Origin: a virus
Lineage: Duplodnaviria; Heunggongvirae; Uroviricota; Caudoviricetes
DNA length: 51,314 bases
IMG/VR virus record: IMGVR_UViG_3300042259_000065
Strand: one strand, 5' to 3'
Shown here: positions 2,915-43,616 of the stretch, in pieces
Position numbering within the stretch: the first letter of the stretch is position 1
How the letters are laid out: each line of letters starts with the position of its first letter
Made by a program: the position numbers and the translations under genes
The notes under the pieces: model-generated
Databases searched by the model: none
Seen by the model: only the letters and a program-made list of their open reading frames with translations
What the model was told of the DNA's origin: nothing

Positions 2915-3053
2915 TAAACAAAGAGTGGACAGATACAAGCTTCTCTATAATCTCTACGGAGTAGGGTATGTAATCCTTAATTTATTAAGTTATACCTGAT
3001 AATACCGTAGGTAACCGGACGAATGTTTCATTCGTTGCGGTTTTATGTATCCG
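2915..3053 (+). ncRNA. Putative omega-RNA scaffold of TnpB-1
   Basis: Nested stems TACGG 2955-2959/CCGTA 3005-3009, GGTAT/ATACC and CTTAA/TTAAG, then terminal hairpin ACGAAT-gtttc-ATTCGT (3019-3035). Confidence 0.6.
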
Positions 3054-20860: not shown

Positions 20861-21680
20861 TGGTGGTTTCCTTTAGATGGAAGGCTTCCATAACTTCTGG
20901 GAAGAAGTTTCTGTTTAACCAAGCTAACTCGCCTTTCTCTCTTTCTGCTACCTCATCATATCTGAGAGCTGCTTCTATGGGACAACTGAAGAAGCCGAGA
21001 TGAGTCTGTTTACTGTTATAATATAGATTTGCCCTATATGAACCTTTGGAATCAGACCAGCACACGCCCTTGTACTTCACCTTTCCCCAATGTTTAGGCC
21101 CAGTATTTATTGATTGCTCACCCAAGGTTATCCACCTAGTATTCTCTAAACAGTAGTTTCCAAAAGTATCTATCCTATCTAAGGTTAAACCCTCATCATA
21201 ACGGGATAGGTTATCCTCCATGAAGTTGTCAAGGTTCAACCACCTATCACAGACTTTGATACCTTTGCCACCATAATAAGAATATCCTTTAAAATCCTTA
21301 TCGTAGCACCTATTTATGATACCTACCCATGATTGGTAAAGTCGGTGACCAGAAAGGCCATGCTTAGTGTTCCCGATACCCTCCTTCTTACCATAACATA
21401 CGCCCTCTACATTAGTTATTTTGAAAACTACCTTGTCGTTATTCGTACACTTCCCACAAGAGGATACATTATTAGCTTTTAAGTTACAATACATCATTGG
21501 TTTGTAATTACCACACTCACAAGAACAAACCCACATACTTTTTGTAGTTCCATTTGGTTGTGTAAAATTATCAGTTCGATAAATGGCGGTGAGTTTACCA
21601 TAAACTTTGCCCGTGATATCTACACTATTCCAAGCCAAAGGCTTTTCTGGAAACCTAATTTTTAAATCCTCTATATTCAC
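20853..21680 (-). CDS. Free-standing HNH-AP2 homing endonuclease
   Basis: CSCECGN; HGLSGHRLYQSW...NRC...YGGKGIKVCDRW...LTLDRID..GNY..EN.RW; C-terminal AP2 (YKGV...HLGFF...AALRYD). Confidence 0.85.
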   Translation of the reverse strand: MNIEDLKIRFPEKPLAWNSVDITGKVYGKLTAIYRTDNFTQPNGTTKSMWVCSCECGNYKPMMYCNLKANNVSSCGKCTNNDKVVFKITNVEGVCYGKKEGIGNTKHGLSGHRLYQSWVGIINRCYDKDFKGYSYYGGKGIKVCDRWLNLDNFMEDNLSRYDEGLTLDRIDTFGNYCLENTRWITLGEQSINTGPKHWGKVKYKGVCWSDSKGSYRANLYYNSKQTHLGFFSCPIEAALRYDEVAEREKGELAWLNRNFFPEVMEAFHLKETTND

Positions 21681-21695
21681 AATATTCCCTCCTAA

Positions 21696-24690
21696 TTAGT
21701 GTGCACCACTCCAGCCCTCTTCAGGTGTTGCCATTAGATACTCACCTGTAATCGGGACTTTAAACTCTAACATCTTATAAGCATCTTCAATACACTTAAC
21801 CATTAACTCACCTGCCCGACAATAAGCCCTTGCAATATTGCCATTGTCTAGAACTTTTGTATTGCCAGAGAGGACAAACTTACCACCATTCAACTCCTTT
21901 GCAGATTTAGAAGCAGAGCAGACCTGATGCAAGTTTTCTAGAGTAATACCGTATTGAAGACAGATATCCTCTTCCGATTGATATTCTTTTTCCTTAGCTT
22001 TAGCTTTCTCAGCATCATCAACACTTTTCAGAATATTCTCTATGAGAGATTTATCATTCAACCCAGTTGGAAACTCTTTAAGACGGACTAGATTATCAGG
22101 TACTTGTAACTGGTACTCATCCTTTTAATTTTAGAGACGTTACTCTCTTTCCACAATTTCTTGCGTAATTGGATCATATCACAATCTGTAAAACAGATTC
22201 CCCGCTTTTCGAAATCCACTTGGATTCCTACGAACAACTATGTTCTGATCTCTGCACACCTTGCGATGCTCAGGATTGCCTTTGCCATTACGCAGTAAGG
22301 TTTCCCTGAATTAACGGAGTTTTTCGACACACCTCACGATGTGAAGCCACAATGAGTTTATGGTAGTAAATTATACGAGCTACACCTTTATCTAACAGTC
22401 CTTCCTCTAAAGCCCTCTCATGCCATAGAATGCCTGCTAAGTCCATACCGATTGCACCCATAGATTGTAGATAAGCATTAAGGAGACTATGCTTGGAACG
22501 AGTCCAAATCTTACGCTTATCTATACCTAAAATATAGCGTTTCCCTGTTGACTCCCAGAACTTCTCTAACCATTCTTTACACCCTTTAAGACCAAAGTTA
22601 GTATCCCAGAATGCATTAATTACATCTTGAGCAGCGTCCTTACTGATGCCCAACATAGCCGATACCTTAGCTGCTTGAGCGCCATACAGCACTCCATAGG
22701 TAATTCCTTTACCTTCAGAACGTGATACTGTTCTTCCTGCAGCCTTAGAATATGCTTTGGCATTCTCAGTATGGGGGTCCCCACTCAATCCACGATAATA
22801 AGCACCACCATCAAATGGGTAAGCAGCATTAGCAGCACAGAAGCCCTCTAGGTTACTTCCATCTATACCTACTTGCCAAAATCCCTCTGGAACAGTGAAC
22901 AATTCCCTCATTTCATGCCCTAAAAGAGCATCTGATCCGGGGATATTGGCTATGACGGAGTGTTTTCGTCTGTTTGTGTTGGTAAGTCCAGAATATCGTG
23001 CTGGAAGTTTACCATCTTTCTTGAGTCGAGGATGATTTAGCCAACCAGTTTCTTTAGTTTCATCTATAGCTTTAATAACTGAGCGTCTATTACGAAGAGA
23101 CAACCATTTAACAATCTTAGATGCCATTTCACCATCAATCTTTTCAAGATTGGGACAAAGTTCCCCTCTATCATCCTTAAGTTTAGGACTTGTTACCAAG
23201 AAACGAGACTTCTTGACAACCTTCTTGAAGTCTGGATGGTTTCTATTGGTAATCTTTTCTAGTTTAACTCCCATCTCTTGATTGATATAGGGCAGGTAAA
23301 TAGAGTCCCTTTTCTCCAATATATACTCCCAACAGGATTCCTCCACCTCAAAGTCAGGTCTATTTTGTTTATTATCGTCCCTAGAGACATCCTTGGTACG
23401 GAACAACGTAGGAACCCAATTACCATCAGTTACAAGCCATTGCTTGATATCGTCTTGATTTGATAGTCTCATTGGTTCGAACAAAAACTCCTCTGGGATG
23501 TATTTTTCTTCAAGAAGCTTTCTTGCTTTAACCTCATCCTCTGCCGATAGAATACTTGTAGATTCCTCCTTTTGACGTTGTGATCTAATGAAGTCTCCCA
23601 TTTGATCTTCATCTTCAACACCATGATTGACACAATATCTCTTTCCTGCAACAGATAATTCACCCGTTTTCTTAAATGCAGTTTTTGGAGGAGCTACAAA
23701 CTTCTGTGCATCACGATCAACTTCAATATTGTAATACTTCTCAATAAAGTTTAGCCCGTGGTGTGAGATATTACCATCTTTATCAAAAGGATTAGCTGGA
23801 AAATTAGGTTCTCTTGATTTTGGGACTCGTTTTGGGGGAAGTTTAGGTTCTACATCTTCCTCAATCTCCCGCATCATTTTATCGACTTTCTCAACTAATT
23901 CCCAAGCTTTATCCTCTCGGAACACTACACCCTGCTCTTCTTGAACCTGCATTAAGTGGTCAGAGAGGAGATTACGCTTCAAAGGCAATCTCCAATCAAC
24001 ACCTTTATCCTTTCCATCCTGCATTTCTTTAATTAAGAATTTCCATTGAAGTTCGTTGATTATTACGTCTTCCCATACACGATCAACATACTTCCATAAC
24101 GGGAGTCCTTTCCAATCTTCAATGGCAACCTTCTTGTTTGCAACCTTGACACCCCATGCCTCCAATGAGTGTGGTCCAATACTTTTTGCTTTTCCTCCTT
24201 GAGGGTTTTTAACTTTAGCAGGACATCCTCTTGGAAGAGGTCGGTCAGGATAAAGGCCACGAGACATACTAAGTGTATCATAGACTCTGATTTCCTTCCC
24301 ATTGATTTTCTCTACGGGAATTTTCTCGTATTTAGTCCCCAGCAGGTAATTGAATGCCAACATATCAAAACCTTCCAAGTTTTGACAGGCAATAGCAATT
24401 GGGTCTTTTACAATCCAATCATTAAACTCACTAAAATCATAGAGGTTTAAATTAACTCCTTTACCTTCTGCAAACTTCTTAGCTTCCTCAAACTCTGGAT
24501 GCTTAAAGTCAAGAAAGAGGTTCCAATTATTCTTTCCATACTCCTTAAACAATAAGGTGTGGAACTTAGAGATGTGGTCTTCATCTGCAATAGATTTTCC
24601 ACATAGACCATCACCTTCAGTGTCGAATATAAATAAGCCTTTCAATATACTTTCCTCTTTAAAATGGTTCATCTCCGTCTTGGTCAACAA
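21696..24690 (-). CDS. Family A (T7-like) DNA polymerase with 3'-5' exonuclease, spliced: complement(join(21696..22121, 22360..24690)); likely start TTG 24645, ~900 aa
   Basis: ExoI FDTEGD; motif A IDGSNLE; motif B RSEGKGITYGVLYG; motif C YYH|DEYQ restored by splicing. Confidence 0.92.
22122..22359 (-). ncRNA. Group I intron in DNA polymerase motif C (238 nt, no ORF)
   Basis: P1 CCAT/GTGG; 7-bp P10 ACTCATT/GATGAGT; P aattcaggga, Q gcaatcctgagc; P7 GATCA/TGATC; terminal G at 22122. Confidence 0.9.
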
Positions 24691-26566
24691 TATTGTCCAT
24701 AACTAAACCTGTCTGTTCAACAAACTCTGGGTCTTGATAGGTGGTCTCATCTACGCTCAAACTTTTTACTGGCTCAGTTATAATTTCCATGGGGGCTTCT
24801 GAGAAGCAATGAACAACCTCACCATTTAGTTTATAACACTCGCCCTCAATCTCCCATTTTGAGGCATCAACAAACTTACCTGTATCTTCTTCCATCCATA
24901 GTACATCAGTGTTCCCAAGTTTTTTACCACGCCTGTTCTTAAGACTAACCAACCTCACTCGACCACGGCTTCTATTAGGAAGTTCCTCTGGTTCTACTGC
25001 TATCACAGACCAAGATAATTGTTCCAGAGATGCTGAACCACGAAGATTCTCCTTTCTAACTGGGTAGAAGAAAGGAAGCTGCTCACCCGTATCCTTATCC
25101 GTAGGCGGTTTAAAGTTTATGCGACTCATATGACTAACCATTAAGATAGTTACATTGTGTTGCTTACAAAATGCAGCTAGGTGAGTCATGACTATATCAA
25201 GTTCTTTCCGTTCATCTCCTGTACGAAGACCAGATATTACCATACTGATATGGTCTAGGACAAACCACCGACAACCAAAAGCCATCAGTTGTTTGAACTT
25301 ATTAAGGAGTTCATCAATAGGTATAGATCCAAAGTGGTCGAGAACTCGGACAATATCCTCTTTTTGCCATTGAGTATGAATCTTGTTGTGATCATCTTCA
25401 CTGATAAATGATTCTGGATCGTTAGCAAAGTTCTTAGGGTTGTACCCTAGCTCCATCCCATACCAAGAGTTTATAGCTTCCTCTTTATCTTCTTCAAGTC
25501 TGATAACCCCTAGTTTTTCACCATCTACATAATCATCAAGTCTAGCTTTTCCACCGACAAAATTTACAGTTTCAGGATCATAATAACCCTCTGGTAAGCC
25601 ATGGCGTAGATAGTCAATGATATCCTTTTCCATGTAACGGGTAACTGTGCTTTTGCCTGAGCCAGATGGTCCCAAAACAGTGATTAATTCTGAAGAAGTT
25701 AATCCAAACAGAGTTTTAGTCAACTTAGGGAAGTATTTTAAAGGTAATCCTACTTTTTTCTTCTTCCTTAGATCCTTAACACTCACCTCTTGAAGAGAGA
25801 CAACTTTTTCAGGAGAATATTTTATTTTATTAAAAGATACCGCTTTTGCAAACTCTTTTGGAAAGGTCGATACCCATTGCCGAACATCCTTAATATCTTC
25901 TGGAAAATTAACAACGTAAAACTCTTGGGAGAGGAGGTAAGCTGCAATATCTTCTGTACCTTCCTTACCTTTCTTGATGCCCTTAGCTTTTTCAACCTCT
26001 GTTGCCGAGTCATTGTCTAACACACAGCATATGTCTTTAAAAGATCTGACAAATTTCTCATTGTGGGCGATACTCTGTTGTGAATTGCCGACACCGCAGT
26101 TCATCCCTACAACGTTGGGTTCAATCTTACCTTCCCATTTGCTTCCCTTAAGACTATTCAAGAGATCCCGTCTAGCAGCAATAACATCTCCCTCTCCCTC
26201 TGAAATCACCAGTGTAGATTTCTTATCGGTTTTACAGACATGTTGCCCGAACAATTGACTGCTTACTTTAACTACCCCAACAACGGTAAAATGACCATGC
26301 TCTTCTTTGTCTTTTGTCCAATCCCTCCGCTTATAACCTGTAAGCTTCCCCTCTTGATTATAATAGGGAAAGTATGTTGCTACAAGTGTCTCACCATCTT
26401 CTTGACTGAACTCCGACCTAACCCCATAAAACTCGGCATCTTCTTTTATAATATCCTGCTGAGGAACAGCTACACAAGGGAAAGTTTTTACCTCTTCCAC
26501 TGTCAATGGTTCTTCATTACGATAATACTTTTGGAAGGTTCTACCTTTCTTTGCACTCACGCTCAA
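24659..26566 (-). CDS. Primase-helicase (T7 gp4-like TOPRIM + SF4 helicase)
   Basis: VISEGEGD, LDND, Walker A GPSGSGKST, LDHISM, LRGSASLEQLS, KNRRG. Confidence 0.93.
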   Translation of the reverse strand: MSVSAKKGRTFQKYYRNEEPLTVEEVKTFPCVAVPQQDIIKEDAEFYGVRSEFSQEDGETLVATYFPYYNQEGKLTGYKRRDWTKDKEEHGHFTVVGVVKVSSQLFGQHVCKTDKKSTLVISEGEGDVIAARRDLLNSLKGSKWEGKIEPNVVGMNCGVGNSQQSIAHNEKFVRSFKDICCVLDNDSATEVEKAKGIKKGKEGTEDIAAYLLSQEFYVVNFPEDIKDVRQWVSTFPKEFAKAVSFNKIKYSPEKVVSLQEVSVKDLRKKKKVGLPLKYFPKLTKTLFGLTSSELITVLGPSGSGKSTVTRYMEKDIIDYLRHGLPEGYYDPETVNFVGGKARLDDYVDGEKLGVIRLEEDKEEAINSWYGMELGYNPKNFANDPESFISEDDHNKIHTQWQKEDIVRVLDHFGSIPIDELLNKFKQLMAFGCRWFVLDHISMVISGLRTGDERKELDIVMTHLAAFCKQHNVTILMVSHMSRINFKPPTDKDTGEQLPFFYPVRKENLRGSASLEQLSWSVIAVEPEELPNRSRGRVRLVSLKNRRGKKLGNTDVLWMEEDTGKFVDASKWEIEGECYKLNGEVVHCFSEAPMEIITEPVKSLSVDETTYQDPEFVEQTGLVMDNIVDQDGDEPF

Positions 26567-27048
26567 CTAATACCTCCACATTCAATAACCTGCTTACTCT
26601 TGGCAGAAGCTTCACAAGCAAGCCTATCAGCTCTCTCATTAAATTCTACACCAGTATGCGCTTTTACTTTAACCCAAGTTACATGATGTTTTTGGGTTTC
26701 ATTATAGAGGTCAATAACTAATTGCTTATTCTTAACCTCGCCTTTATTCTGTGTGACAAATCCTCTCCGTTCCCATCCACTGTAATATTTTGTTATGCAA
26801 TCTATCGTGTATTGAGAGTCACTGTAGATGGTAACAAAACACCTCTCCTTTAGTAACCTCAGCCCAACCAACGGTGCTGTTAGTTCCGCAATGTTGTTAG
26901 TTCCAATTCCAATAGGAGTCGAAACCTCTTTCACATAGTTTCCATAAATTAAAACAGTACCGGCACCACAATAATATTGATTATTAGGTGCTTTTATTGC
27001 ACTACCATCACACCAAATCTCTACATTCTTAATAACAACCTCCTTCAA
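26563..27048 (-). CDS. rnhA: Ribonuclease HI
   Basis: CDGS...TNNIAEL...YSDSQY...VKAHTGVEFNERADRLA. Confidence 0.95.
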   Translation of the reverse strand: MKEVVIKNVEIWCDGSAIKAPNNQYYCGAGTVLIYGNYVKEVSTPIGIGTNNIAELTAPLVGLRLLKERCFVTIYSDSQYTIDCITKYYSGWERRGFVTQNKGEVKNKQLVIDLYNETQKHHVTWVKVKAHTGVEFNERADRLACEASAKSKQVIECGGIS

Positions 27049-28867: not shown

Positions 28868-28978
28868 ACTCTACCACACTACATTCTCTTGTCAACCAAA
28901 AATCTTATCCCTGACAAAGAAATTATTTTCAAAAAAGTTGAAATCTTTTGTTGACAACCATCTTCTGTTTGGTAAGAT
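28868..28978. promoter_or_regulatory. Back-to-back divergent sigma70 promoters
   Basis: Minus: TTGACA (28895)-16-TAGAGT. Plus: TTGACA (28951)-16-TAAGAT. A/T tracts between them; coincides with the strand switch. Confidence 0.75.
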
Positions 28979-30750: not shown

Positions 30751-31308
30751 ATGAAGTATTACACAACAGGGCAGATCGCTAAGATGTATAATGTAGCCCC
30801 TATGACAGTGAGACGTTGGATTGAATCAGGAAAGTTTGAACATGTACAACGTACACTTGGTGGTGAGTACAGGGTAGGTGTAATAACTGAAACCAAAAAT
30901 ATATTATACGCTAGAGTATCTAGTAAAAAACAAGAGAGTTCTATTGATAGTCAATTAGAGTACCTTAAAAGTAAGGTATCAGAATATGATGAGGTTATGT
31001 ATGATATTGGATCTGGGTTCAATTTCAAAAGGAAACAATTTAGAGCCATTCTGGAAAGATGTCTTAAAGGAGAAAGTATCCGAGTTGTGGTTTCCAACCA
31101 AGACAGATTTACAAGAGTCGGTTTTGAATTCTTACAGTGGATCTTTGAAAGAACAGGAGGCTCTATCGAAGTATTGGATAAAACGGAAACTAAACAAGAA
31201 TTCGATTACGACAACCTTATCTCGTTCATCACTGTCTTCTGTAACTCTTACTACGGAAAACGCAACACAAGTCGTAACAAGAAAAATAAGGATTTACCCA
31301 AAGAATAA
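30751..31308 (+). CDS. tnpA: IS607 TnpA serine recombinase
   Basis: MerR-like HTH (YTTGQIAKMYNV...TVRRW...RTLGGEYR) plus YARVSS...QL...DIGSG...R...DRFTR. Confidence 0.95.
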   Translation: MKYYTTGQIAKMYNVAPMTVRRWIESGKFEHVQRTLGGEYRVGVITETKNILYARVSSKKQESSIDSQLEYLKSKVSEYDEVMYDIGSGFNFKRKQFRAILERCLKGESIRVVVSNQDRFTRVGFEFLQWIFERTGGSIEVLDKTETKQEFDYDNLISFITVFCNSYYGKRNTSRNKKNKDLPKE

Positions 31309-32374
31309 AGATAAATATTTGAGTTTATGTGATTTATCCAGAGCCTGCTATAACAAGATGATTGAATTTAAAATAAATTATGAATCAGATAAAAGGAAAT
31401 CACAGGAACAAAGGACTGAGGTAATGAATTGGTGCAAGCAATGGGGTAACTATCAATCACATGTTATGCAAGAAGCTTGTAGGCAGGCTGATATTACAGC
31501 TAATTCTATTATTAAAAAGAGAATGAAAGGTCAAAAGTGCGAATTTTCTTTTAGATCAAGAAAAAGTCCTGTTCAGGGATTTGATATACAAAAACTCCCT
31601 AAGAAGGGGATATACCCTAAGTTTCTTGGGGATGTACATTTTACAGAAGATGTTCCAGAGTATGCAAAAGGTAAAACAGCAAGGGTTATAACAGAGAATG
31701 GGTGTTGGTGGTTGTGTTGTTATGACACTATTAAAATCGTTAGAACAACATCAATAGACAAAGTTTGCGCTCTTGATTGTGGTGTTAGGACTTTCCAAAC
31801 TGTTTATTCACCGAGTGAAGTAGCAGAATTAGGTTCTAACTACTTCAAGGATAAACTATTACCATTATACATTAAATTAGATAAGCTAATTTCTAAAAGG
31901 AGAATACAATGTAATTTAAAGTTAGATAACCAAAGAAGCTCAGATTTAATAACTTTTTATAGTAAGAAGATAAATAAACTTCGTTTGAGAATCAAAAACT
32001 TAGTTGAAGACCTTCATAAGAAGTGTGCAAATTATTTAACAAACGAATTTGACTTAATACTGATACCTGTATTTGAAACTAAGAAGATGTCAAAACTTGG
32101 TAATAGAAAACTTAATAATAAATCCGTAAGAGCCATGTTAGGGTTGTCTCATTACAAGTTTAAAGAAACTTTGAAGTGGTTTGCTAAAAAGAAGGGTAAG
32201 CTCGTAGTAGATGTCAATGAGAGCTTTACATCCAAGACAAACCCGTTTACTGGTGAGCTTATGAATATAGGTAGTGCTAAATCATTTAAATACCTAAATA
32301 AGATTTACGATAGGGATATGAATGGTGCGAGGAATATATTCATTAAAAATACGTTGCTGTGCAACGAAGAGTAG
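30986..32374 (+). CDS. tnpB: TnpB with rearranged RuvC (pro-Fanzor/Fanzor2-like)
   Basis: ALDCGVRTF; no EDL but IPVFET; VNESFTSK; DRDMNGARNI. N-terminal LWFPTKTD extension overlaps tnpA by about 320 nt. Confidence 0.85.
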   Translation: MMRLCMILDLGSISKGNNLEPFWKDVLKEKVSELWFPTKTDLQESVLNSYSGSLKEQEALSKYWIKRKLNKNSITTTLSRSSLSSVTLTTENATQVVTRKIRIYPKNKDKYLSLCDLSRACYNKMIEFKINYESDKRKSQEQRTEVMNWCKQWGNYQSHVMQEACRQADITANSIIKKRMKGQKCEFSFRSRKSPVQGFDIQKLPKKGIYPKFLGDVHFTEDVPEYAKGKTARVITENGCWWLCCYDTIKIVRTTSIDKVCALDCGVRTFQTVYSPSEVAELGSNYFKDKLLPLYIKLDKLISKRRIQCNLKLDNQRSSDLITFYSKKINKLRLRIKNLVEDLHKKCANYLTNEFDLILIPVFETKKMSKLGNRKLNNKSVRAMLGLSHYKFKETLKWFAKKKGKLVVDVNESFTSKTNPFTGELMNIGSAKSFKYLNKIYDRDMNGARNIFIKNTLLCNEE

Positions 32375-32437
32375 GATACACTCTAATCATAACAACAAAT
32401 GTTCTATTTGTTGCGGTTTTAAGTATCAGAATTAACA

Positions 32438-34855: not shown

Positions 34856-35273
34856 AACTAAAAAGGTTGCACGTTTACAACGGAAGGTAGATTACCTTGA
34901 AAAGCAACTTGCTTTTGCAAACAGTGAATTTTGTCAACGTATTAATCGTCCAGTGAAGTTTCAAACTACAGAACGTCCAGTTTTCAGAAGTAGTGACAGT
35001 TTTGAAGAGCAACACCTCAACACTTTAATCCACTACATTTACTCTGAAATGGATAAAGCTTATAATATGGCTTGTCAAATGGGTGAAACTGACCCTAGTG
35101 AGGTTGAGTTCATACTTTACATGGATCATGATACATATTATGATTTGCATAATATTAATAACTATCATGACTTTAAGTGTGATGTTGAATCTGGTAAAAT
35201 CAAATTTCGTGGTCATGAAGTGGTCTTGACAACTATGTCAAAACGTTATGTGCATTTTGCAAGGATTAAGTAA
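34848..35273 (+). CDS. Hypothetical protein
   Basis: Start MSKTKK, overlapping the upstream stop. Confidence 0.6.
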   Translation: MSKTKKVARLQRKVDYLEKQLAFANSEFCQRINRPVKFQTTERPVFRSSDSFEEQHLNTLIHYIYSEMDKAYNMACQMGETDPSEVEFILYMDHDTYYDLHNINNYHDFKCDVESGKIKFRGHEVVLTTMSKRYVHFARIK

Positions 35274-35432
35274 TGTTCACATCAATAAGACAACAAGACG
35301 ACTATACAATTTATACTATTGATTCATACAGGGATATGGTTGAATTGACAGAGTGGCTTGATGTATTTAACTTGCAATATCATGTAAATCAGATTACAGT
35401 TAGTCGAAGTGAGATTTGGGTGAAAGGAGGGG

Positions 35433-35753
35433 TTGATTTTGAAAAATAAGCTAACAAAACGTAATAAAGTTAAACTTACAAAATTATTTAAGATTGCAGA
35501 GAGAAATGATATGTATCTTTGTGACTTTATGAGCTTAAAGAAAACCATCGCACAACATAATAATCTTAACAAAAAGCGTAAAAAGTGTGAAGAAGTTCTC
35601 TTGTGGGGTAAAGCCACAAAATTCTTAAGTAGTAAATGGATTGTTCCTATTGCATATAAAACAAAATATGGTAAACTTATTGATGCTAAGAGTTCTCGTG
35701 TATTCTCTAGTGAAGATGAGATGAATAATGCAAGAAATCGAGGTGATTTGTGA
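35433..35753 (+). CDS. Basic hypothetical protein
   Basis: SD GGAGG before TTG. Confidence 0.6.
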   Translation: MILKNKLTKRNKVKLTKLFKIAERNDMYLCDFMSLKKTIAQHNNLNKKRKKCEEVLLWGKATKFLSSKWIVPIAYKTKYGKLIDAKSSRVFSSEDEMNNARNRGDL

Positions 35754-36124
35754 AAAAGAAACTACGTAATCAAATTAAAAAGACTTACCATTGGTGGGAT
35801 TATACATTCTTATTGAAGCTAATGGTATTATGGTTAGATCACTCATCTAAGGCTCATAGGGACAAAGGACACCTTCTGCGTAGTAAACACACCAGTCATC
35901 AAATGAAAGTTGTCTCTGGTGTTATCAAGCGAATTATTGCAGATGAATATGATAAACCTTGCAAAGTGTTTACATCTAGAAATAAAATAACTTCTTCGGC
36001 TAAGATTTTCGGAAATGAAGAATTTGAATATTTAGATTTGAAATACCAAAACACACATAGACAAGCAGATATTGATTTTGTGTTTGATATGATGAAGAAA
36101 CACTTACTGAGTTGGTGGGATTGA
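35750..36124 (+). CDS. Hypothetical protein
   Basis: SD GAGG; C-terminal WWD. Confidence 0.6.
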   Translation: MKKKLRNQIKKTYHWWDYTFLLKLMVLWLDHSSKAHRDKGHLLRSKHTSHQMKVVSGVIKRIIADEYDKPCKVFTSRNKITSSAKIFGNEEFEYLDLKYQNTHRQADIDFVFDMMKKHLLSWWD

Positions 36125-36126
36125 TT

Positions 36127-36354
36127 ATGAGACAATGTTTTAATTGTGATGGTGATAAGGTTATTGAACTTTCCTACCAAGAAGATGGGGAACCTTTAGA
36201 TGAATACTTCCTTGTTTCTGGTTACATTGAACCTTGTTGGACATGTGATGGAACTGGTGAGATTGAGGAAGGATGTTATTGCCATGCCTACTGTAGTTGT
36301 GAATGCATTTGTGGTGCGTGGGATGACCATGAATGTGATTGTTGGGATGGTTGA
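36127..36354 (+). CDS. Cys-rich metal-binding protein with DnaJ-type CxxCxG repeats
   Basis: CFNCDG, CWTCDGTG, CYCHAYCSCECIC, CDC: 12 Cys. Confidence 0.6.
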   Translation: MRQCFNCDGDKVIELSYQEDGEPLDEYFLVSGYIEPCWTCDGTGEIEEGCYCHAYCSCECICGAWDDHECDCWDG

Positions 36355-36416
36355 TAGTTTAAGACTATTGACTTATTAGGTTTTTATATGTTAAACTAGT
36401 TTATAGACTTAATTAA

Positions 36417-36632
36417 TTGGAGATTACTATGGTGAAACCAGAATGGGAACATGTTATTAATATCTATAGTGGTATGTGTAATAAGCCTTTCACAAAGAAA
36501 CAGATTCAAAATATGTTGACATATCGAAAGAAAAATAATATGCTTCAAGAATGGTTAGATTTGAAGACAGCCTACTCTATGTGGGTTGTTAATCACAATT
36601 TTGATAAAGAGAATTCTAATGAGAACAATTAG
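36417..36632 (+). CDS. Hypothetical protein
   Basis: Follows a TTGACT promoter. Confidence 0.55.
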   Translation: MEITMVKPEWEHVINIYSGMCNKPFTKKQIQNMLTYRKKNNMLQEWLDLKTAYSMWVVNHNFDKENSNENN

Positions 36633-36826
36633 TCAGTGTCTTAGGTTGAAGGATAAGTCTAAGATGACAATAGAAGAGTATATTATGATGTCTGATTGGG
36701 TTAAGAATACCGCCAGATATATGTATGAACCTTCAGCATATGCACACATTTTAGGTTGGTGGGTATTAGGTGATAGTAGTGTACCATTGTCACCTAAAGA
36801 GGCTGGATTAGATTAGAGGTATTATT

Positions 36827-36988
36827 ATGCAACTAGATTTACCTAAATGGATGTCTGATGAGATTGAATCGGATTCACATAAATCTGTGCAATATGTAAT
36901 AAAGGAAATAATAAAGGAATACTTAGAAAGTAAAGAAGGGAAGAGAATTAGAGATAGAATTAGAGAAAGGGAAGGGGTATTAAACTGA
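36827..36988 (+). CDS. 53-aa hypothetical protein (not in ORF track)
   Basis: SD GAGG; MQLDLPKWMSDE...REGVLN*. Confidence 0.5.
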   Translation: MQLDLPKWMSDEIESDSHKSVQYVIKEIIKEYLESKEGKRIRDRIREREGVLN

Positions 36989-37073
36989 TTATATACCTCT
37001 GTAAGCATTGATACATAAGGGCTGAGAGAGACCCATTACATAAATCTCCTCAATATAACTCGAATGAGGTAAC

Positions 37074-38399
37074 ATGATTAAATTAGAAGAATTAGATAAT
37101 AATACCAGACTTGATTTGATAAGAGGGTGTGAACCTTTCTATATAACATATAGATCACCTAAGTGGCAGAATAACATAGTAGATGTGTTATGTAAAGAGT
37201 TTGGTAAAACTTATGAGATACCTATTAGAGTCATACTTACTGCTGCCTCTAAAGCTAAAAGATATGGATTAACTGGTACGCAATTTCCACTAGACTTCAT
37301 GAAATTTAAAAAGGCTGAATCTAAGACGAAGAAGAATATACCATATAGTAAAACTAAAGACCTGATCTCTTTGATGGAGAAATCGGGGTATCTTACATTG
37401 TATGTAGGTTTTAAGAATAAAACAGACGGTATATCAAGTGCTATTCGTTTTCATGATAAACTTTTGAATTGTTTAGATAAGAAGATGTGTGATAAGTGGG
37501 GAATGTCAAGATTTGAGAATTTAAATCTTCTAGAAGTTATAGACTCTGAGAATAGTACACAGCATAAAGATGTTTTCCATTCTCTTAAGAAATTTAAGGG
37601 TGTTAAGAAACTTGTAGAAGATATCAACCTAGTGAATAAAAATCTTTGTGAACACCTCATAACTTACAAAGGTGAAACTTGCTGTGTGGTTTATAAAAGA
37701 AGATTTGAGGACGACCTTCAATCAGCAGGTAGATGGTATGTGGTAGGTACTTTTCAAGTAGAAGATTCTTATTTAAGAAACACAATAATGATTGATTCTA
37801 CTCCCACTGTTGAAATAGATATTAAACATATCCACCCTTCAATATTAGCATCTATATCAGGTTTTAAACTTAAGAAAGGTTATGATCCTTATGATATAAC
37901 TTCTTATGTTAAGACTCCTTTAGAATTTAAAGTGCTTAGGGAATTTATAAAACCGTGCTTTATGGCACTATTGTATGCTAATAATAGAGGTACAGCTTTA
38001 CACACTATCAGGGAAAAGCTTTGGGATAATCGACACATAGCAACTTGGTTAGATGCAGAAACCATTCTAGAGGCTTTAGAAGAACATAATCATATGTTGT
38101 CAGAATTCTTTTATCATAAAGATAATTGGAAATTATGTCAGTTCATAGATAGTCAAATCGCAACTAAAATTATGGTTCATTTTGCAAGCAAAGGTGAAGT
38201 ATGTTTAAACTACCATGATAGTTGGATAGTAACTTACCACAACAAACAAGAACTTATTAATGTGATGAGAGACAGTTGGGAACATGTTATTGGAAATCTT
38301 GATAACTTCGGTTATGATATAGAATTTGATAATACACCAAAGGTTAAGCAGGGGCATCCAGCTTTTGAGTCTATACCTATTGAATATTATGAGGAATAA
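37074..38399 (+). CDS. Compact PolA/T7-RNAP-superfamily polymerase-like protein (441 aa)
   Basis: SAGRWY, TVEIDIKHIH (motif A), REFIKPCFMALLYA (R-x3-K-x7-Y, motif B), LNYHDSW (motif C). Confidence 0.6.
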   Translation: MIKLEELDNNTRLDLIRGCEPFYITYRSPKWQNNIVDVLCKEFGKTYEIPIRVILTAASKAKRYGLTGTQFPLDFMKFKKAESKTKKNIPYSKTKDLISLMEKSGYLTLYVGFKNKTDGISSAIRFHDKLLNCLDKKMCDKWGMSRFENLNLLEVIDSENSTQHKDVFHSLKKFKGVKKLVEDINLVNKNLCEHLITYKGETCCVVYKRRFEDDLQSAGRWYVVGTFQVEDSYLRNTIMIDSTPTVEIDIKHIHPSILASISGFKLKKGYDPYDITSYVKTPLEFKVLREFIKPCFMALLYANNRGTALHTIREKLWDNRHIATWLDAETILEALEEHNHMLSEFFYHKDNWKLCQFIDSQIATKIMVHFASKGEVCLNYHDSWIVTYHNKQELINVMRDSWEHVIGNLDNFGYDIEFDNTPKVKQGHPAFESIPIEYYEE

Positions 38400-38402
38400 C
38401 CA

Positions 38403-38624
38403 ATGAAACTCCTTGGACGTAAGTATTACAAAGATAAAACTGGTGGGAAACATCACATCCGCACCAATGGAGAATATGATTGTTGGTGGAAAGATGTCTG
38501 TACACCAAGCAAATCTCTTGAGAAAAGGTTAGTTCAGAAAGAGATTGAAGAAGGTGAACAATTATATTATGCTTACCTTGAAGACGAATTAGATGATGAA
38601 TGTGGAGGTTATGAGAATCGATGA
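38403..38624 (+). CDS. Hypothetical protein
   Basis: SD GAGGA. Confidence 0.6.
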   Translation: MKLLGRKYYKDKTGGKHHIRTNGEYDCWWKDVCTPSKSLEKRLVQKEIEEGEQLYYAYLEDELDDECGGYENR

Positions 38625-38821
38625 CTATTGAAAGTTATTATGATTTGGAGGCTGACCTCGACCTTTTCATACCTTATGCAACAAAGAAAATTTCTACAAA
38701 GTGGAATATTCCTATTGACAAAGTTAAGATTGTTTGGAATGATACAGAACTTGAATACTGCATCTACATTAATGGGAAGTGGTGTGGTTATTATGATTTG
38801 GATGAAATGGGGGATTCATGA
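38621..38821 (+). CDS. Hypothetical protein
   Basis: Overlapping start. Confidence 0.55.
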   Translation: MTIESYYDLEADLDLFIPYATKKISTKWNIPIDKVKIVWNDTELEYCIYINGKWCGYYDLDEMGDS

Positions 38822-39138
38822 ACTACGAAGAAATGAGTGATTTTGAGATTAACTTAGCTGTTGCCAAGATGAAATACAATCACCCAAGCGATCCTGAATA
38901 CTTTAAGTTTTACAGATTGAATAACGGAAACGTTGTTCAGGTTAACGCTTATAAAATGTGGCCTCAAGATTTGGACTTCTGTAACAACCCGTCAGACGCT
39001 TGGTCTTTGTTGGTGAGTCTTGTTAATTGTGGGTGTACAGTTGTTGTTGAGAAAGATAAAATCAATGGAGATTTTTTGAATGGCAAAAGTATCACAAGAA
39101 AAATTGCAGAGCTATATCTTAGCGAAAGAGCAGATTAA
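38818..39138 (+). CDS. NinX/DUF2591-like protein
   Basis: MNYEEMSDFEINLAVA...DFCNNPSDAW motifs. Confidence 0.75.
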   Translation: MNYEEMSDFEINLAVAKMKYNHPSDPEYFKFYRLNNGNVVQVNAYKMWPQDLDFCNNPSDAWSLLVSLVNCGCTVVVEKDKINGDFLNGKSITRKIAELYLSERAD

Positions 39139-39589
39139 TTTTGTAAAAGGAAAGCCCTATTGGGTAGTCCATAAAAGCGGCGCAAAAACAGGGGTGCCAG
39201 CGGGTAGTGTTGACAAGGCTGGGTACAGAAGGATTTGCGTCGGTGGTGACATACTTCTAGCGCATAGGGTTTCATGGTTTATTGAGCATGGATATAACCC
39301 AGAACTAAGTTTGGATCACATTGATGGCGACAAGGATAATAATGACCCGTCGAATTTGAGAGTTGTTGAGTTCCATCAAAATCAAAAGAACATGAAAAAG
39401 CCATCAACCAACTCTACTGGATTTAAAGGAGTTTATAAAAACTCAGGAAGAGGTAAGCCGTTTTGCGCTCAAGTAAAGCACAAAGGCGTCAAATATTATC
39501 TTGGTAGCTTTGACACCGCAGAAGAGGCGAAATTAGCTTACGACAAAAAAGCAATGGAGTTGCACGGTGAGTATTATAGGTACGAATAG
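39080..39589 (+). CDS. HNH-AP2 endonuclease
   Basis: AHRVSW...DHIDGDKDNNDPSNLR...NQKN...NSTGFKGV...YLGSFDTAEEA. Confidence 0.9.
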   Translation: MAKVSQEKLQSYILAKEQINFVKGKPYWVVHKSGAKTGVPAGSVDKAGYRRICVGGDILLAHRVSWFIEHGYNPELSLDHIDGDKDNNDPSNLRVVEFHQNQKNMKKPSTNSTGFKGVYKNSGRGKPFCAQVKHKGVKYYLGSFDTAEEAKLAYDKKAMELHGEYYRYE

Positions 39590-39842
39590 GGTAATGATTT
39601 ACTTTCTGAAAATGAAGGATGCCGAGAATGAATAAAGATAAAGCTGCAGACAATCTAGACCAATTCTTTCAAAAGGAAGAAGTTCAGGGCGTACTAATCT
39701 CTCGTGCACAACAGCTTGATGACCCTTCACAACTTATCTACATTTCTGGTGAAGATGTAGATGGTGTTCATATGAAATATACGTCTGAATACCTGAGCGG
39801 AACCTGAAATATATTCAGAAGAATCTTAGAGTAGATTCAGGT

Positions 39843-40055
39843 TTGATATCAGAGGAAGATAGAGGTCAGTGGCTGATTGACAATCCAGAACCAGAGATCA
39901 AGTTTCGTGAATCAGAACTAGGTTATAGTTTTTCATCTGATATGTCTAAATCTGAAAGAAAACAATCTTTCTTTGATGCATATGAACAAGCTAAGCTCAA
40001 AACACAGCGCCACCAAGAACAAATCACAGATATTGTTGGAGAAGAAAAACTATGA
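39843..40055 (+). CDS. Hypothetical protein
   Basis: ORF in operon. Confidence 0.5.
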   Translation: MISEEDRGQWLIDNPEPEIKFRESELGYSFSSDMSKSERKQSFFDAYEQAKLKTQRHQEQITDIVGEEKL

Positions 40056-41092: not shown

Positions 41093-41219
41093 AATTTTGA
41101 AAACGATGGAAAATTTAATTTCAACAAAGTAGGTTTCTTTTGTTGACAAGCAAGATTATGCGTGCGAAGATTCAAACATGTAGTAAAGAAGTGAGTTTTA
41201 ATCTAGAGAGGATTGAGTT

Positions 41220-42428: not shown

Positions 42429-42914
42429 TACCTAATACACTTCATCAAATAAACCTCTACCTCTTCACCACAAGCCATACACGAACGATTTAAACCATTC
42501 TCAAACAAACTTTACTCTTAATCAATAAATTATTCTAACCAAACGTGAATTTTAGAAACGATTGCGATAATTATTCTTAGCAAAGTAGAAAATTTTGAAA
42601 CAGGGGACGAAAATTATCTCAAGCATTTTACTTTTGAAAGGACGTCGATTTGATTTCAAGTAAACGTAATTGCACACGACGAAAGAATTATCTTAACCTA
42701 TCGCGTTTCTCTAAAAATTTGTATCAGATTGGAAAATGATCTTTAGCAATCGTGAAAATTTGGGATAATGATAATGAGTGTGAGAATTATTTACTTTGTA
42801 GAATGAAAACCATTATTATTTGATAATGTTGTCATTAGTAAATAGCGGGATCGGTTGGTTCCTGCAAAACCTTGATCTTAACTTGTAAGATTCGCGAGCT
42901 AATGGCTAACCGCA

Positions 42915-43439
42915 AGTGATTTCCTGATTTGTTGAATATATTATAAAGCCACTCGCCAATAAAAGCAAGTGACTTTGATCACAATTTTAGCTATTTTCGT
43001 ACTCTTTTAGCCACTTTCTAGCTTGCATAATGCTTTTAGTGTTAAAGTTTATATAATAGAATCCGTTTTTATAAACATTATAAACCCAAGTTTTTTGGCA
43101 AAATTCAAAAGTAAATAGATGACCATTAAGCTTTAAAGTACCATTTTTTGCATTAGCTGCCATCTTTTGCGCGCCATCCAGTAGTTTGTTCATATTGATA
43201 GCCATATATGCGATCCTCTTTGTTGTTCACTTGTTAGTAGGTAACCGTTTACCTTAAAAAGAATATTAATACTTTAAGTATGAAAATACAAGGCTTTTTA
43301 AACCTTATATTTAATTTTGTGACTCAAGTCACGTTTATAAATATCATCCACTCTTTATAGCTACCAACCTATTTAGACTTAAGTCTGCGACAATAACGGC
43401 TTCGCTAGTGATTTCCTGATTTGTTGAATATATTATAAA
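42915..43439 (-). repeat. Two identical 33-bp direct repeats (42915-42947, 43407-43439) forming the -10/leader of duplicated leftward promoters
   Basis: AGTGATTTCCTGATTTGTTGAATATATTATAAA occurs twice. Upstream -35 elements TTGCTT and TTGCAA lie at 17-nt spacing. Confidence 0.85.
42987..43205 (-). CDS. Small early protein
   Basis: SD GAGGA; own promoter TTGTAT-17-TAATAT. Confidence 0.65.
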   Translation of the reverse strand: MAINMNKLLDGAQKMAANAKNGTLKLNGHLFTFEFCQKTWVYNVYKNGFYYINFNTKSIMQARKWLKEYENS

Positions 43440-43478
43440 AGAGATCGCTCACTATTGCAAGCGATCTTTATCACAATT

Positions 43479-43616
43479 TTATTTATTAATACTTTCTATG
43501 TGCCAGATAAAAGATCTAGGAAGCATACTATAAGCTATTGCAGAAACTTGATCATAGTTCATACCATGAAAATCTCTATATTGTACTTTAAAACCGTTAT
43601 TCCATACTAGTCGCAT
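43479..43616 (-). CDS. 45-aa early protein (not in ORF track)
   Basis: SD GAGG; MRLVWNNGFKVQYRDFHG...ESINK*. Confidence 0.55.
   Translation of the reverse strand: MRLVWNNGFKVQYRDFHGMNYDQVSAIAYSMLPRSFIWHIESINK

What the first reader, a model, noticed from the sequence alone, without database searches (positions are those of the whole stretch)
37074..38399. Half-size single-subunit polymerase-like protein with intact T7-RNAP-style motifs
In 441 aa it has, in order, GRWY (cf. D-x2-GR-x-Y), an acidic motif A (VEIDIKH), an exact R-x3-K-x7-Y motif B and HDS motif C (T7 RNAP: IHDSF). The phage already has a replicative PolA, so this may be a minimal RNA polymerase or primase, or a template-independent nucleotide polymerase. 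It could complement the ZBD-less primase or serve middle/late transcription. Activity is inference.
Basis: partly seen in the sequence, partly recalled or inferred. Interest (0 to 1): 0.7.

Follow-up and report, generated by a model that had tools for sequence, protein, structure and literature searches.

The report
Minimal winged-helix family-A polymerase (divPolA2)
This Vibrio-phage gene encodes a stripped-down relative of DNA polymerase I and T7 RNA polymerase with a probable DNA-binding head; it belongs to a large phage family first described by computer analysis in 2024 (divPolA2), and its job, most likely starting nucleic-acid chains, has never been tested.

Summary
The polymerase reading holds at fold level. 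An AlphaFold2 model (pLDDT 95.6) has a palm-fingers core (residues ~147-421). In a search of 48,161 solved chains, its top 21 matches are all family-A DNA polymerases or T7-like RNA polymerases (Z up to 14.8). A winged-helix-like domain (~30-145) precedes the core.

R220, R235, D249, Y273, K293 and D382 are invariant in ~195 homologues, so the enzyme is almost certainly active.

The family is not new. Its profile hits AUR84708, the published prototype of divPolA2 (Yutin et al. 2024), at E 2e-57. It also aligns with the TV-Pol lineage of 2008 (hhalign E 2.6e-5). Other windows of this scan found the same family on other DNA.

Function is untested. My best guess (~0.35) is site-directed de novo priming of phage replication. 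The phage's T7-gp4-like primase-helicase lacks a zinc-binding domain, and a near-complete relative has no primase zinc ribbon, no AEP (archaeo-eukaryotic) primase and no sigma factor. Transcription, repair and selfish or conflict roles remain open.

Verdict: a new member of a known but uncharacterised kind, of moderate interest.

The parts
37074..38399 (+). Gene for the 441-aa minimal family-A-type polymerase (P0001), a divPolA2 family member
   Evidence: ORF and translation. PHROG 4756, unknown function, E 2e-129. The family profile hits the divPolA2 prototype AUR84708 at E 2.1e-57.
37161..37508 (+). N-terminal winged-helix-like domain (residues ~30-145), presumed DNA-binding head
   Evidence: The domain modelled alone has pLDDT 95.4. 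Most of the top 50 structural matches are winged-helix domains (MarR, CodY, Crp/Fnr, PadR, Cdc6/ORC, TFE, kleisin), but the scores are low, Z 4.3-5.4. A few family members give weak Pfam wHTH hits.
37512..38336 (+). Compact palm-fingers polymerase core (residues ~147-421) with no 3'-5' exonuclease and no canonical two-helix thumb
   Evidence: AlphaFold2 model, pLDDT 95.6. [quoted passage not shown] Foldseek gives E 2e-6, probability 1.0.
37728..37739 (+). GRWY in the beta-hairpin (G219 R220 W221 Y222). R220 corresponds to T7 RNAP R425 and Klenow R668.
   Evidence: R220 is kept in 194/194 sequences, G219 in 189, Y222 in 170. The correspondence comes from collinear motif alignment and from my knowledge of the reference enzymes, not from a residue-level superposition.
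37809..37838 (+). Motif A strand (VEIDIKH + IHP). D249 is the catalytic Asp. H254 sits at the PolA 'steric gate' position (Klenow E710).
   Evidence: D249 is kept in 192/192 sequences and E247 in 176. Position 254 is H in 169, Q in 18 and E in 2. The register matches T7 DNAP motif A in hhalign, although that alignment is not significant on its own.
37938..37976 (+). Motif B helix (R289-x3-K293 ... Y301), the O-helix equivalent
   Evidence: R289 is kept in 188 sequences (plus 3 K) and K293 in 191/191. Position 301 varies: N in 105, Y in 54, F in 32.
38139..38150 (+). Q356 and D359 in the helix before motif C (Q356 aligns with T7 DNAP Q615)
   Evidence: Q356 is kept in 178 of the ~196 aligned sequences and D359 in 179. 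Alignment register.
38214..38222 (+). Motif C, H381-D382-S383 (RNAP-style HDS; PolA has HDE)
   Evidence: D382 is kept in 192/192 sequences and H381 in 190. Position 383 is S in 176, G in 12 and E in 2. Family member P0035 hits Pfam RNA_pol PF00940 here at E 2.9e-4, 20.2 bits, just under the cut-off of 22.
35460..38395 (+). Variable patch that holds the gene. It is replaced in the nearest related phage genome, while both flanks stay about 97% identical.
   Evidence: blastn of the G001 locus L004 against the window matches 38396-39898 (96.9%) and 35123-35459 (97.6%) and nothing in between. The G001 gene at this site is a paralogue only 21% identical to P0001.
24659..26566 (-). T7-gp4-like primase-helicase without a zinc-binding domain. 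This is context for the priming hypothesis.
   Evidence: PHROG 239 match starts at profile position 97 of 801. Pfam finds only DnaB_C. The N-terminus has no Cys4 cluster but keeps a Toprim-like SEGEGD and an LDND motif.

Best explanation
Shown: the gene encodes a stand-alone, proofreading-less, thumb-poor polymerase of the PolA/T7-RNAP superfamily. It has a winged-helix-like N-domain and a ~275-residue palm-fingers core, and it belongs to the divPolA2 family, probably a branch of TV-Pol. All residues needed for two-metal nucleotidyl transfer are present and under strict purifying selection.

Inferred: the winged helix places the enzyme on a particular DNA site. The open, thumb-less active site starts a short chain de novo or extends a very short one. 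That chain is then handed to the phage replisome of PolA plus gp4-like helicase. In this reading the enzyme is a site-directed primase or initiator polymerase. It would supply the de novo priming that a gp4-type protein without its zinc-binding domain is not expected to perform. The arrangement parallels animal mitochondria (a T7-like RNAP, Twinkle and Pol gamma) and resembles in principle the CcPol-MP primase of SCCmec.

Whether the product is RNA or DNA is open. P0001 has His, not Glu, at the steric-gate position, and an RNAP-style HDS motif C.

The confidence given (0.35) is for the priming role. Confidence in the fold and family assignment is about 0.95.
For: Fold.

Catalytic residues are invariant in ~195 homologues, including all paralogues.

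divPolA2 membership: the family profile hits the prototype AUR84708 at E 2.1e-57.

TV-Pol kinship: hhalign of the family against the Ma-LMM01 gp030 lineage gives E 2.6e-5 and probability 75% over 358 columns, with the motifs collinear. Controls against T7 RNAP, T7 DNAP and the phage's own PolA give probability of 2% or less. The reverse profile finds 13 family members at E<0.01.

TV-Pols were predicted to be primase-polymerases (PMC2579912). CcPol-MP, which that paper counted among the TV-Pols, is a proven DNA primase using a PolA active site (PMC7581432).

The phage's primase-helicase lacks a zinc-binding domain. The 99%-complete relative G001 shows no primase zinc ribbon above cut-off (PF08273, PF01807) and no AEP Prim-Pol.

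An RNase H gene sits beside the primase-helicase.

The gene lies in the + strand block of small genes. That block starts at the divergence point and cumulative GC-skew minimum near 29 kb.

In ICP1 the homologue (ORF100, 53.1-54.8 kb) lies a few kb from the early bidirectional replication peak reported 'near the 60 kb position'.
Against: No member of divPolA2 has been assayed.

CcPol itself is now placed close to canonical PolA, in the CHEAP subfamily (PMC10201439), so it is an analogue rather than a close relative.

No helicase, SSB or other replication gene is a conserved neighbour in 17 loci.

No iterons or origin-like repeats flank the gene.

Phages carry 1-3 very divergent paralogues. The subtype assorts independently of the replisome type: the window PolA is 88% identical to ICP1's but the mini-polymerase only about 25%, and phage J2-1 has a 53% mini-polymerase but no similar PolA. 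This does not fit a tightly co-adapted replisome part.

The Toprim catalytic residues of the gp4-like protein look intact, so it may still prime.

The ICP1 origin argument is only as good as a coverage plot.
Confidence: 0.35

Rival explanations
1. It is a miniature DNA-dependent RNA polymerase that transcribes a class of phage genes. The winged helix would act as the promoter reader, and different paralogues would read different promoter classes.
For: Motif C is HDS(F/W) as in T7-like RNAPs, and the hairpin reads GRxY as in the RNAP motif DxxGRxY. Member P0035 nearly reaches the Pfam RNA_pol cut-off. Yeast mitochondrial RNAP gives the lowest rmsd and highest identity among top matches (Z 13.0, 3.7 A, 17%). 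The steric-gate Glu of DNA polymerases is replaced by His or Gln. No Sigma70_r2 match and no canonical T7-type RNAP were found in the relative G001, although the PF00940 search rang in no control genome, so that absence is weak. Yutin et al. 2024 raise this possibility.
Against: No highly repeated 9-mer exists in the 92 intergenic regions of the complete relative G001 (maximum 6 copies), unlike T7-type promoters. Early-region promoter-like repeats are sigma-70-like, with TTGACA. Motif A reads like PolA (D-x-x-x-[LI]-[HE]-P-x-I-L-A). The Tyr that reads the 2'-OH in T7 RNAP (Y639) has no conserved counterpart. Paralogues at the same locus carry the DNA-polymerase signature of Glu plus HDE.
Confidence: 0.2
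2. It is an accessory DNA polymerase for repair, gap filling or lesion bypass on phage DNA, not involved in initiation.
For: It is exonuclease-less, encoded in addition to the replicative PolA, and sits in variable neighbourhoods. Some paralogues have the PolA steric-gate Glu and HDE. Yutin et al. 2024 suggest this role.
Against: A sequence-reading type of N-domain and the loss of the thumb are not typical of repair PolAs. His or Gln at the steric gate in about 95% of the sampled family is unexplained. No repair genes are linked.
Confidence: 0.2
3. It is mainly a selfish or conflict gene. Either it is the polymerase of a small mobile cassette inherited from TV-Pol transposons, or it is an enzyme that makes a nucleic-acid product used against host defences or competing phages.
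For: Copy number varies from 1 to 3 per genome. At the syntenic site a 21%-identical paralogue replaces the gene between phages whose flanks are 97% identical. Neighbourhoods are variable. TV-Pols are linked to transposons (PMC2579912). An HNH-AP2 homing endonuclease gene lies 0.7 kb downstream.
Against: No recombinase, terminal repeats or target duplications lie next to it. In every ICP1-named record listed the match is one copy at a comparable position. Strict conservation of the active site fits any active role equally well.
Confidence: 0.15
4. It is a catalytically dead polymerase fold reused only as a DNA-binding regulator.
For: None specific. It has a DNA-binding-type N-domain and sits in the early gene region.
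Against: Both metal-binding Asp residues, the RxxxK pair and the hairpin Arg are invariant across ~195 sequences as low as ~21% identical to P0001.
Confidence: 0.03

Closest known systems
divPolA2 (Yutin, Tolstoy, Mutz, Wolf, Krupovic, Koonin 2024, Virol J 21:200, PMC11348598); prototype AUR84708 of Vibrio phage 1.063.O (MG592441); first seen in Rheinheimera barbaviruses
   Same: Same family by profile search (E 2.1e-57). Shared features: a palm with intact catalytic residues, no exonuclease, no canonical thumb, an N-terminal globular domain, encoded beside a regular DNA polymerase, variable neighbourhood, and 2-3 paralogues per genome.
   Different: P0001 is only 22% identical to the prototype and belongs to another subclade. 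P0001 has His at the steric-gate position and HDS, while the prototype and two G001 paralogues have Glu and (H/F)DE. The paper found no similarity for the N-domain. Here it looks like a winged helix, though with weak scores.
TV-Pol (Transposon-Virus polymerase) family, Iyer, Abhiman, Aravind 2008, Biol Direct 3:39 (PMC2579912), e.g. Microcystis phage Ma-LMM01 gp030
   Same: It has the minimal PolA/T7-RNAP core: a hairpin Arg, two palm Asp residues, and RxxxK plus a conserved Asp in the fingers. A subset has an extra N-terminal domain, and members are never linked to nucleases. The D-x4-H motif is shared with the gp030 lineage. hhalign gives E 2.6e-5 over 358 columns.
   Different: The profile-profile probability is only 61-75%. 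There is no D5-like helicase, resolvase, integrase or transposase next to the gene in 17 loci. The thumb is reduced to about one helix. That gp030 is the TV-Pol the paper lists for Ma-LMM01 is my inference, from its position beside IS605-type transposases.
CcPol-MP primase of staphylococcal SCCmec (Bebel et al. 2020, PMC7581432; Rice 2023, PMC10061031)
   Same: A truncated PolA-type active site is used for de novo chain initiation. A separate DNA-binding module confers template binding. It is carried by a mobile element.
   Different: CcPol is close to canonical PolA (CHEAP subfamily, PMC10201439) and keeps part of the exonuclease domain. Its DNA-binding partner is a separate OB-fold protein, and it sits in an operon with a helicase. 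None of this is seen here.
T7-like single-subunit RNA polymerases, including the split N4 RNAPII (gp15/gp16) and mitochondrial RNAP
   Same: The palm-fingers fold (Z 13.0 yeast mitochondrial RNAP, 11.9 T7 RNAP, 7.9 N4 RNAPII), an HDS motif C, and a GRxY hairpin motif.
   Different: P0001 is half the size or less. I saw no counterpart of the promoter-binding N-domain, specificity loop or intercalating hairpin. No Pfam RNA_pol match reaches the cut-off. The Y639 equivalent is not conserved.
Canonical family-A DNA polymerases (Klenow, Taq, Bst, T7 gp5, apicoplast Pol)
   Same: These are the best structural matches (Z up to 14.8). Motif A has a PolA-like pattern. The order of motifs A, B and C is the same, with comparable spacing.
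   Different: There is no exonuclease domain, no two-helix thumb and no Pfam DNA_pol_A match. P0001 has His instead of the steric-gate Glu, and HDS instead of HDE.

Membership tests
divPolA2 (Yutin et al. 2024) | Sequence homology to the published prototype AUR84708 (genome MG592441) | tested here: met
   The profile of 88 family members hits MG592441 25475-26704 (-) at E 2.1e-57, 190 bits, covering profile positions 32-421. That ORF is annotated AUR84708.1. Pairwise BLASTP against P0001 gives 22% identity and E 5e-8.
divPolA2 (Yutin et al. 2024) | Palm domain with conserved catalytic residues; no 3'-5' exonuclease; N-terminal globular domain in place of a canonical thumb | tested here: met
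   The catalytic residues are invariant. The model shows the core at 147-421 and a separate N-domain at 30-145, with only one helix (177-192) where the thumb would be. Loss of the thumb is judged from secondary structure, not from a residue-level superposition.
divPolA2 (Yutin et al. 2024) | Encoded in addition to a regular DNA polymerase, in variable neighbourhoods, often as 2-3 paralogues | tested here: met
   PolA lies at 22288-24690. No neighbour is conserved across 17 loci. G001 has 3 copies, PWH3a-P1, J2-1 and G003 have 2 each, and ICP1 has 1.
TV-Pol (Iyer et al. 2008) | Hairpin with an absolutely conserved Arg; two conserved palm Asp residues; fingers with a conserved Asp and RxxxK | tested here: met
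   R220, D249 and D382 are invariant. R289 is kept in 188/191 sequences and K293 is invariant. D271 is kept in 139 sequences and Y273 is invariant in the fingers insert.
TV-Pol (Iyer et al. 2008) | Significant profile similarity to an accepted TV-Pol | tested here: inconclusive
   Against the Ma-LMM01 gp030 lineage, hhalign gives E 2.6e-5 and probability 74.8% (61% with the 88-sequence profile) over 358 collinear columns. Controls give probability of 2% or less. The reverse HMM gives a best E of 3.6e-4. This is positive but below the usual 90% probability. The identity of gp030 as the paper's TV-Pol is inferred, not checked by accession.
TV-Pol (Iyer et al. 2008) | Thumb module of two antiparallel helices N-terminal to the hairpin | tested here: inconclusive
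   The model has one 16-residue helix (177-192) before the hairpin. I had no coordinates for a residue-level comparison.
TV-Pol (Iyer et al. 2008) | Fusion or linkage to a D5-like helicase, or to a resolvase, integrase or transposase | tested here: not met
   None lies within 3.5 kb in 17 loci. The two TnpB-like transposase ORFs of the window are 5 kb and 34 kb away.
T7-like single-subunit RNA polymerase (Pfam PF00940) | Match to the Pfam RNA_pol model above the gathering score | tested here: not met
   P0001 has no Pfam match even at E 10. The best family member, P0035, scores 20.2 bits against a cut-off of 22.
T7-like single-subunit RNA polymerase (Pfam PF00940) | Motifs DxxGRxY, A, B with the 2'-OH-reading Tyr, and C as HDS | tested here: inconclusive
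   GRxY and HDS are present and conserved. The Tyr position (301) is N, Y or F across the family. Motif A resembles PolA more than RNAP.
Canonical family-A DNA polymerase (Pfam PF00476) | Pfam DNA_pol_A match; 3'-5' exonuclease (or its remnant); steric-gate Glu; HDE motif C | tested here: not met
   None of the 88 members has a listed Pfam DNA_pol_A match. There is no exonuclease domain. P0001 has H254 and HDS. Two G001 paralogues and AUR84708 do have Glu and (H/F)DE.
CcPol-MP type PolA-SSB primase | Adjacent small OB-fold partner gene and a helicase in the same operon | tested here: not met
   No conserved downstream partner and no helicase in 17 loci. The neighbours of P0001 are PHROGs of unknown function. 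Their folds were not predicted.

The most novel reading that the evidence does not exclude
divPolA2 enzymes are the smallest natural single-subunit, template-directed polymerases able to start chains. They combine a ~275-residue PolA/T7-RNAP core with a winged helix that reads a DNA site. The His/HDS subclade (P0001, ICP1 ORF100) would make RNA and the Glu/HDE subclade would make DNA. One phage could then carry both an RNA-making and a DNA-making miniature initiator polymerase.
Probability: 0.15. Interest if true: 0.8.

Novelty: new member of a known kind. Interest (0 to 1): 0.4.

Why it matters
The family is large: 2110 cluster representatives at E<=1e-3 in a 1.8-billion-protein library. It is unannotated in Pfam and NCBIfam, and its PHROG has no known function. 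It occurs in tractable phages, including the cholera phage ICP1.

If it primes replication or transcribes genes, it would define the minimal working core of the PolA/T7-RNAP superfamily. It would also explain how these phages replicate with a gp4-like protein that has no zinc finger. And it could give a very small programmable polymerase.

If it is only a repair enzyme, it is ordinary.

The finding is not new in kind. The family was described computationally in 2024 (divPolA2), and its wider group in 2008 (TV-Pol).

Tried and rejected
1. Sequence-only identification gave nothing: Pfam at E 10, NCBIfam, and PDB sequences with one protein and with the profile. The ESM Atlas gave only 'hypothetical protein' clusters.

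2. I first suspected a PD-(D/E)xK homing nuclease, because of 'EIDIK' and the multiple copies. The fold search ruled this out.

3. I looked for a conserved partner gene. Clustering the flanks of 17 loci found none. The partly shared neighbours are a DNA methylase, a CapR-domain protein, tail and terminase genes, and unknowns.

4. I tested co-adaptation with the replisome. In the pair window/G001, both the replisome and the mini-polymerase are swapped. Across five genomes, however, the subtypes assort independently, so I rejected the idea.

5. I looked for phage-specific promoters. No repeated 9-mer occurs in the intergenic DNA of G001. The window has no T7-like repeat family.

6. I looked for iterons or origin-like repeats around the gene and found none convincing. 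Only a short upstream element is shared with PWH3a-P1 and qdvp001. It looks promoter-like.

7. hhalign of the family against the single sequences of T7 RNAP, T7 DNAP and the phage PolA was not significant.

9. I searched for fused forms. The longest hit (864 aa) is joined to a T4 baseplate domain and looks like a gene-calling run-on. The other long forms have no Pfam domain.
Full report
**Observation.** The ORF at 37074-38399 (+) is real and gives 441 aa. The window comes from a Vibrio myophage of roughly 127 kb, judged from the longest contig that carries the protein. It is related to PWH3a-P1 and qdvp001, whose orthologues are 64% identical. The window also encodes tail genes, a full PolA (22288-24690, -), a T7-gp4-like primase-helicase (24659-26566, -) and RNase H.

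**Sequence searches.** P0001 has no match in Pfam (even at E 10), in NCBIfam or in PDB sequences. Its only family is PHROG 4756, of unknown function. The family is nevertheless large. An exhaustive phmmer search of 1.84 billion cluster representatives gives 2110 hits at E<=1e-3 and 375 at E<=1e-10.

In an alignment of 88 diverse members, R220, R235, D249, Y273, K293 and D382 are invariant. In ~195 sequences aligned to the family HMM the same six never vary. G219, E247, R289, Q356, D359, H381 and S383 are each kept in 90% or more.

**Fold.**
- The AlphaFold2 model from the 88-sequence alignment is very confident (pLDDT 95.6, pTM 0.91).
- Foldseek against the PDB returns family-A DNA polymerases with probability 1.0; the 50 rows shown are all of this family (E from 2e-6).

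| Match | Z |
|---|---|
| Apicoplast Pol | 14.8 |
| Klenow | 13.1 |
| Pol nu | 13.0 |
| Yeast mitochondrial RNAP | 13.0 (rmsd 3.7 A, 17% identity) |
| T7 DNAP | 12.8 |
| T7 RNAP | 11.9 |
| N4 RNAPII | 7.9 |

- These matches cover model residues ~147-421.
- Residues ~30-145 form a separate domain. Modelled alone (pLDDT 95.4), most of its top 50 matches are winged-helix domains, but with low scores (Z 4.3-5.4). I call it winged-helix-like, not proven.
- There is no exonuclease domain. Only one helix (177-192) lies where the two-helix thumb would be.

**Motif character.** The enzyme is a hybrid.
- Motif A follows the PolA pattern: D-x3-[LI]-[HE]-P-x-I-L-A, compared with DYSQIELRILA.
- At the steric-gate position, however, His or Gln replaces Glu (H in 169, Q in 18, E in 2).
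- Motif C is the RNAP-type HDS(F/W), and the hairpin reads GRxY as in RNAP DxxGRxY.
- One member (P0035) reaches 20.2 bits on Pfam RNA_pol at motif C, against a cut-off of 22.
- Two paralogues in the nearest genome, and the published prototype, have the DNA-polymerase signature instead: Glu plus (H/F)DE.
- This split into two motif classes is, as far as I can tell from the papers I read, not described. It is the best lead for a difference in sugar choice.

**What is known.** Three bodies of work bear on this.

1. Iyer, Abhiman and Aravind (2008, PMC2579912) defined TV-Pol, a minimal polymerase family related to PolA and T7 RNAP.
   - It occurs in transposons and viruses, and its features are the ones seen here: a hairpin Arg, two palm Asp residues, and fingers with RxxxK and an Asp. 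A subset has an N-terminal domain. The authors predicted primase-polymerase activity.
   - I took Ma-LMM01 gp030, a 506-aa protein beside IS605-type transposases, as that phage's TV-Pol.
   - I built its small family alignment and compared profiles. The result was E 7.9e-5 at 61% probability with the 88-sequence profile, and E 2.6e-5 at 74.8% probability with 196 sequences. The alignment covers 358 columns, with every motif in register and a shared D-x4-H.
   - Controls against T7 RNAP, T7 DNAP and the phage's own PolA gave probability of 2% or less.
   - The reverse HMM finds 13 family members at E<0.01. Kinship with TV-Pol is likely but not at the usual confidence.

2. CcPol-MP of SCCmec is a proven DNA primase that uses a PolA active site (PMC7581432, PMC10061031). 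CcPol has since been placed next to canonical PolA (PMC10201439). It is therefore a functional analogue, not a close relative.

3. A lead from earlier notes of this scan took me to Yutin et al. 2024 (PMC11348598).
   - The paper describes 'divPolA2': a divergent PolA encoded in addition to the regular polymerase. It has intact palm residues, no thumb, no exonuclease and an unassigned N-terminal domain. Its neighbourhoods vary, and a genome may carry two or three paralogues. The authors suggest a repair DNA polymerase or an RNA polymerase.
   - I checked membership myself. My family profile hits the paper's prototype AUR84708 (MG592441, 25469-26761) at E 2.1e-57. P0001 is 22% identical to it.
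   - BFVD also lists a Rheinheimera barbavirus member annotated 'DNA polymerase' among the family's structural neighbours.
   - The gene is therefore a new member of a family already described in silico.

**Genomic behaviour.**
- The nearest held genome (G001, 125 kb, 99% complete) has three paralogues, 21-25% identical to P0001. PWH3a-P1, J2-1 and G003 have two each, and ICP1 has one (ORF100, 555 aa).
- At the site syntenic with P0001, the G001 flanks are about 97% identical (window 35123-35459 and 38396-39898). The 2.9 kb between them, which holds the gene and several small ORFs, is replaced by a cassette with a 21%-identical paralogue.
- The replication module (20845-27036) is also swapped between these two phages:

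| Gene | Identity to G001 | Identity to ICP1 |
|---|---|---|
| PolA | 31-33% | 88% |
| Primase-helicase | 26% | not measured |

- I tested whether the mini-polymerase subtype follows the replisome subtype, and it does not. ICP1 has the 88% PolA but a mini-polymerase only ~25% identical. PWH3a-P1 has a 51% PolA and a 64% mini-polymerase. J2-1 has a 53% mini-polymerase and no similar PolA.
- No neighbour is conserved across 17 loci, and no helicase, SSB or recombinase is linked.
- HNH homing-endonuclease genes lie beside both swapped patches (20853-21680 and 39080-39589). This may explain the recombination.

**Function.** The invariance of the catalytic set, in all paralogues, argues for an active nucleotidyl transferase. 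Beyond that, the evidence is circumstantial.

For a priming or initiator role:
- TV-Pols were predicted to prime, and CcPol-MP gives a precedent.
- The phage's gp4-like protein starts directly with the Toprim part and has no Cys4 zinc-binding domain. In T7 that domain is needed for template-directed primer synthesis (my knowledge of T7 gp4).
- G001 has no primase zinc ribbon above cut-off (PF08273, PF01807) and no AEP Prim-Pol.
- The ICP1 homologue lies a few kb from the early bidirectional replication peak reported near 60 kb.
- A thumb-less, open active site joined to a site-reading domain suits initiation.

Against it:
- The paralogues are many, divergent and freely exchanged.
- No replication genes are linked, and there are no nearby origin-like repeats.
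- The Toprim residues of the gp4-like protein appear intact.

For transcription:
- The motifs are RNAP-like.
- G001 has no match to Sigma70_r2 or to the T7-type RNAP Pfam model. The RNAP search rang in no control genome, so its negative result says little.

Against transcription:
- The intergenic DNA of G001 has no repeated promoter-like word.
- The visible early promoters are sigma-70-like.

Repair and selfish or conflict roles cannot be excluded. My weights are priming 0.35, transcription 0.2, repair 0.2, selfish or conflict 0.15, and inactive 0.03.

**Verdict.** The gene is a new member of a known kind (divPolA2, probably within TV-Pol), and the scan has met the same family repeatedly on other DNA.

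What this analysis adds:
- the winged-helix-like reading of the N-domain;
- the two motif classes at the steric gate and motif C;
- the profile link between divPolA2 and TV-Pol;
- the absence of any zinc-finger primase in a near-complete relative;
- the independent assortment from the replisome.

Interest is moderate, because the family is large, untested and present in the tractable phage ICP1.

Noticed in passing
window 20845-27036 (-): The whole replication module (HNH endonuclease, PolA, primase-helicase, RNase H) is swapped relative to the nearest genome G001, whose flanks are 93-98% identical. PolA is 31-33% identical to G001's, primase-helicase 26% and RNase H 45%. The window's PolA is 88% identical to that of cholera phage ICP1. 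This is a clear case of the 'DNA polymerase swapping' described by Yutin et al. 2024. The HNH gene 20853-21680 sits at the edge of the swapped patch and has no tblastn match in G001.
   Followed up: partly
window 39080-39589 (+): An HNH plus AP2-domain homing-endonuclease-type gene lies 0.7 kb downstream of the mini-polymerase gene. It is shared with G001 and may drive recombination at the variable patch 35460-38395.
   Followed up: no
window 1808-2914 (+) and 30986-32374 (+): Two transposase ORFs (PHROG 506) are each followed by an 85%-identical 33-nt sequence (3019-3051 and 32395-32427). They look like two copies of a small insertion element in a lytic phage. The second copy lies in a stretch that does not align with G001.
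   Followed up: no
window 36112-36354 (+): An 80-aa Cys-rich ORF (PHROG 10039, unknown function) has two CxxCDG motifs, which resemble the DnaJ-type zinc-finger pattern. It lies inside the variable patch just upstream of the mini-polymerase and has no counterpart in the G001 cassette.
   Followed up: no
window 36827-36988 (+): A 53-aa ORF directly upstream of the mini-polymerase (PHROG 38126) has a sequence pattern that looks ribbon-helix-helix-like to the eye. The gene is not conserved before the paralogues in G001.
   Followed up: partly
window 42911-42995 and 43403-43487; 28920-28960 and 41112-41152: There are two families of repeated intergenic elements. One is an 85-nt pair 492 nt apart (79% identical). 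The other is a 41-nt pair containing TTGACA, with one copy at the divergence point of the two gene blocks near 29 kb, where cumulative GC skew is lowest. They are probably early promoters or regulatory sites.
   Followed up: no
L012 6993-8282 (IMG/VR contig, downstream of a homologue): A 429-aa protein with four CapR-homology domains (Pfam PF21817) lies next to a divPolA2 gene in a 142-kb marine phage contig. From memory, CapR is the PLE satellite's repressor of ICP1 capsid genes.
   Followed up: no
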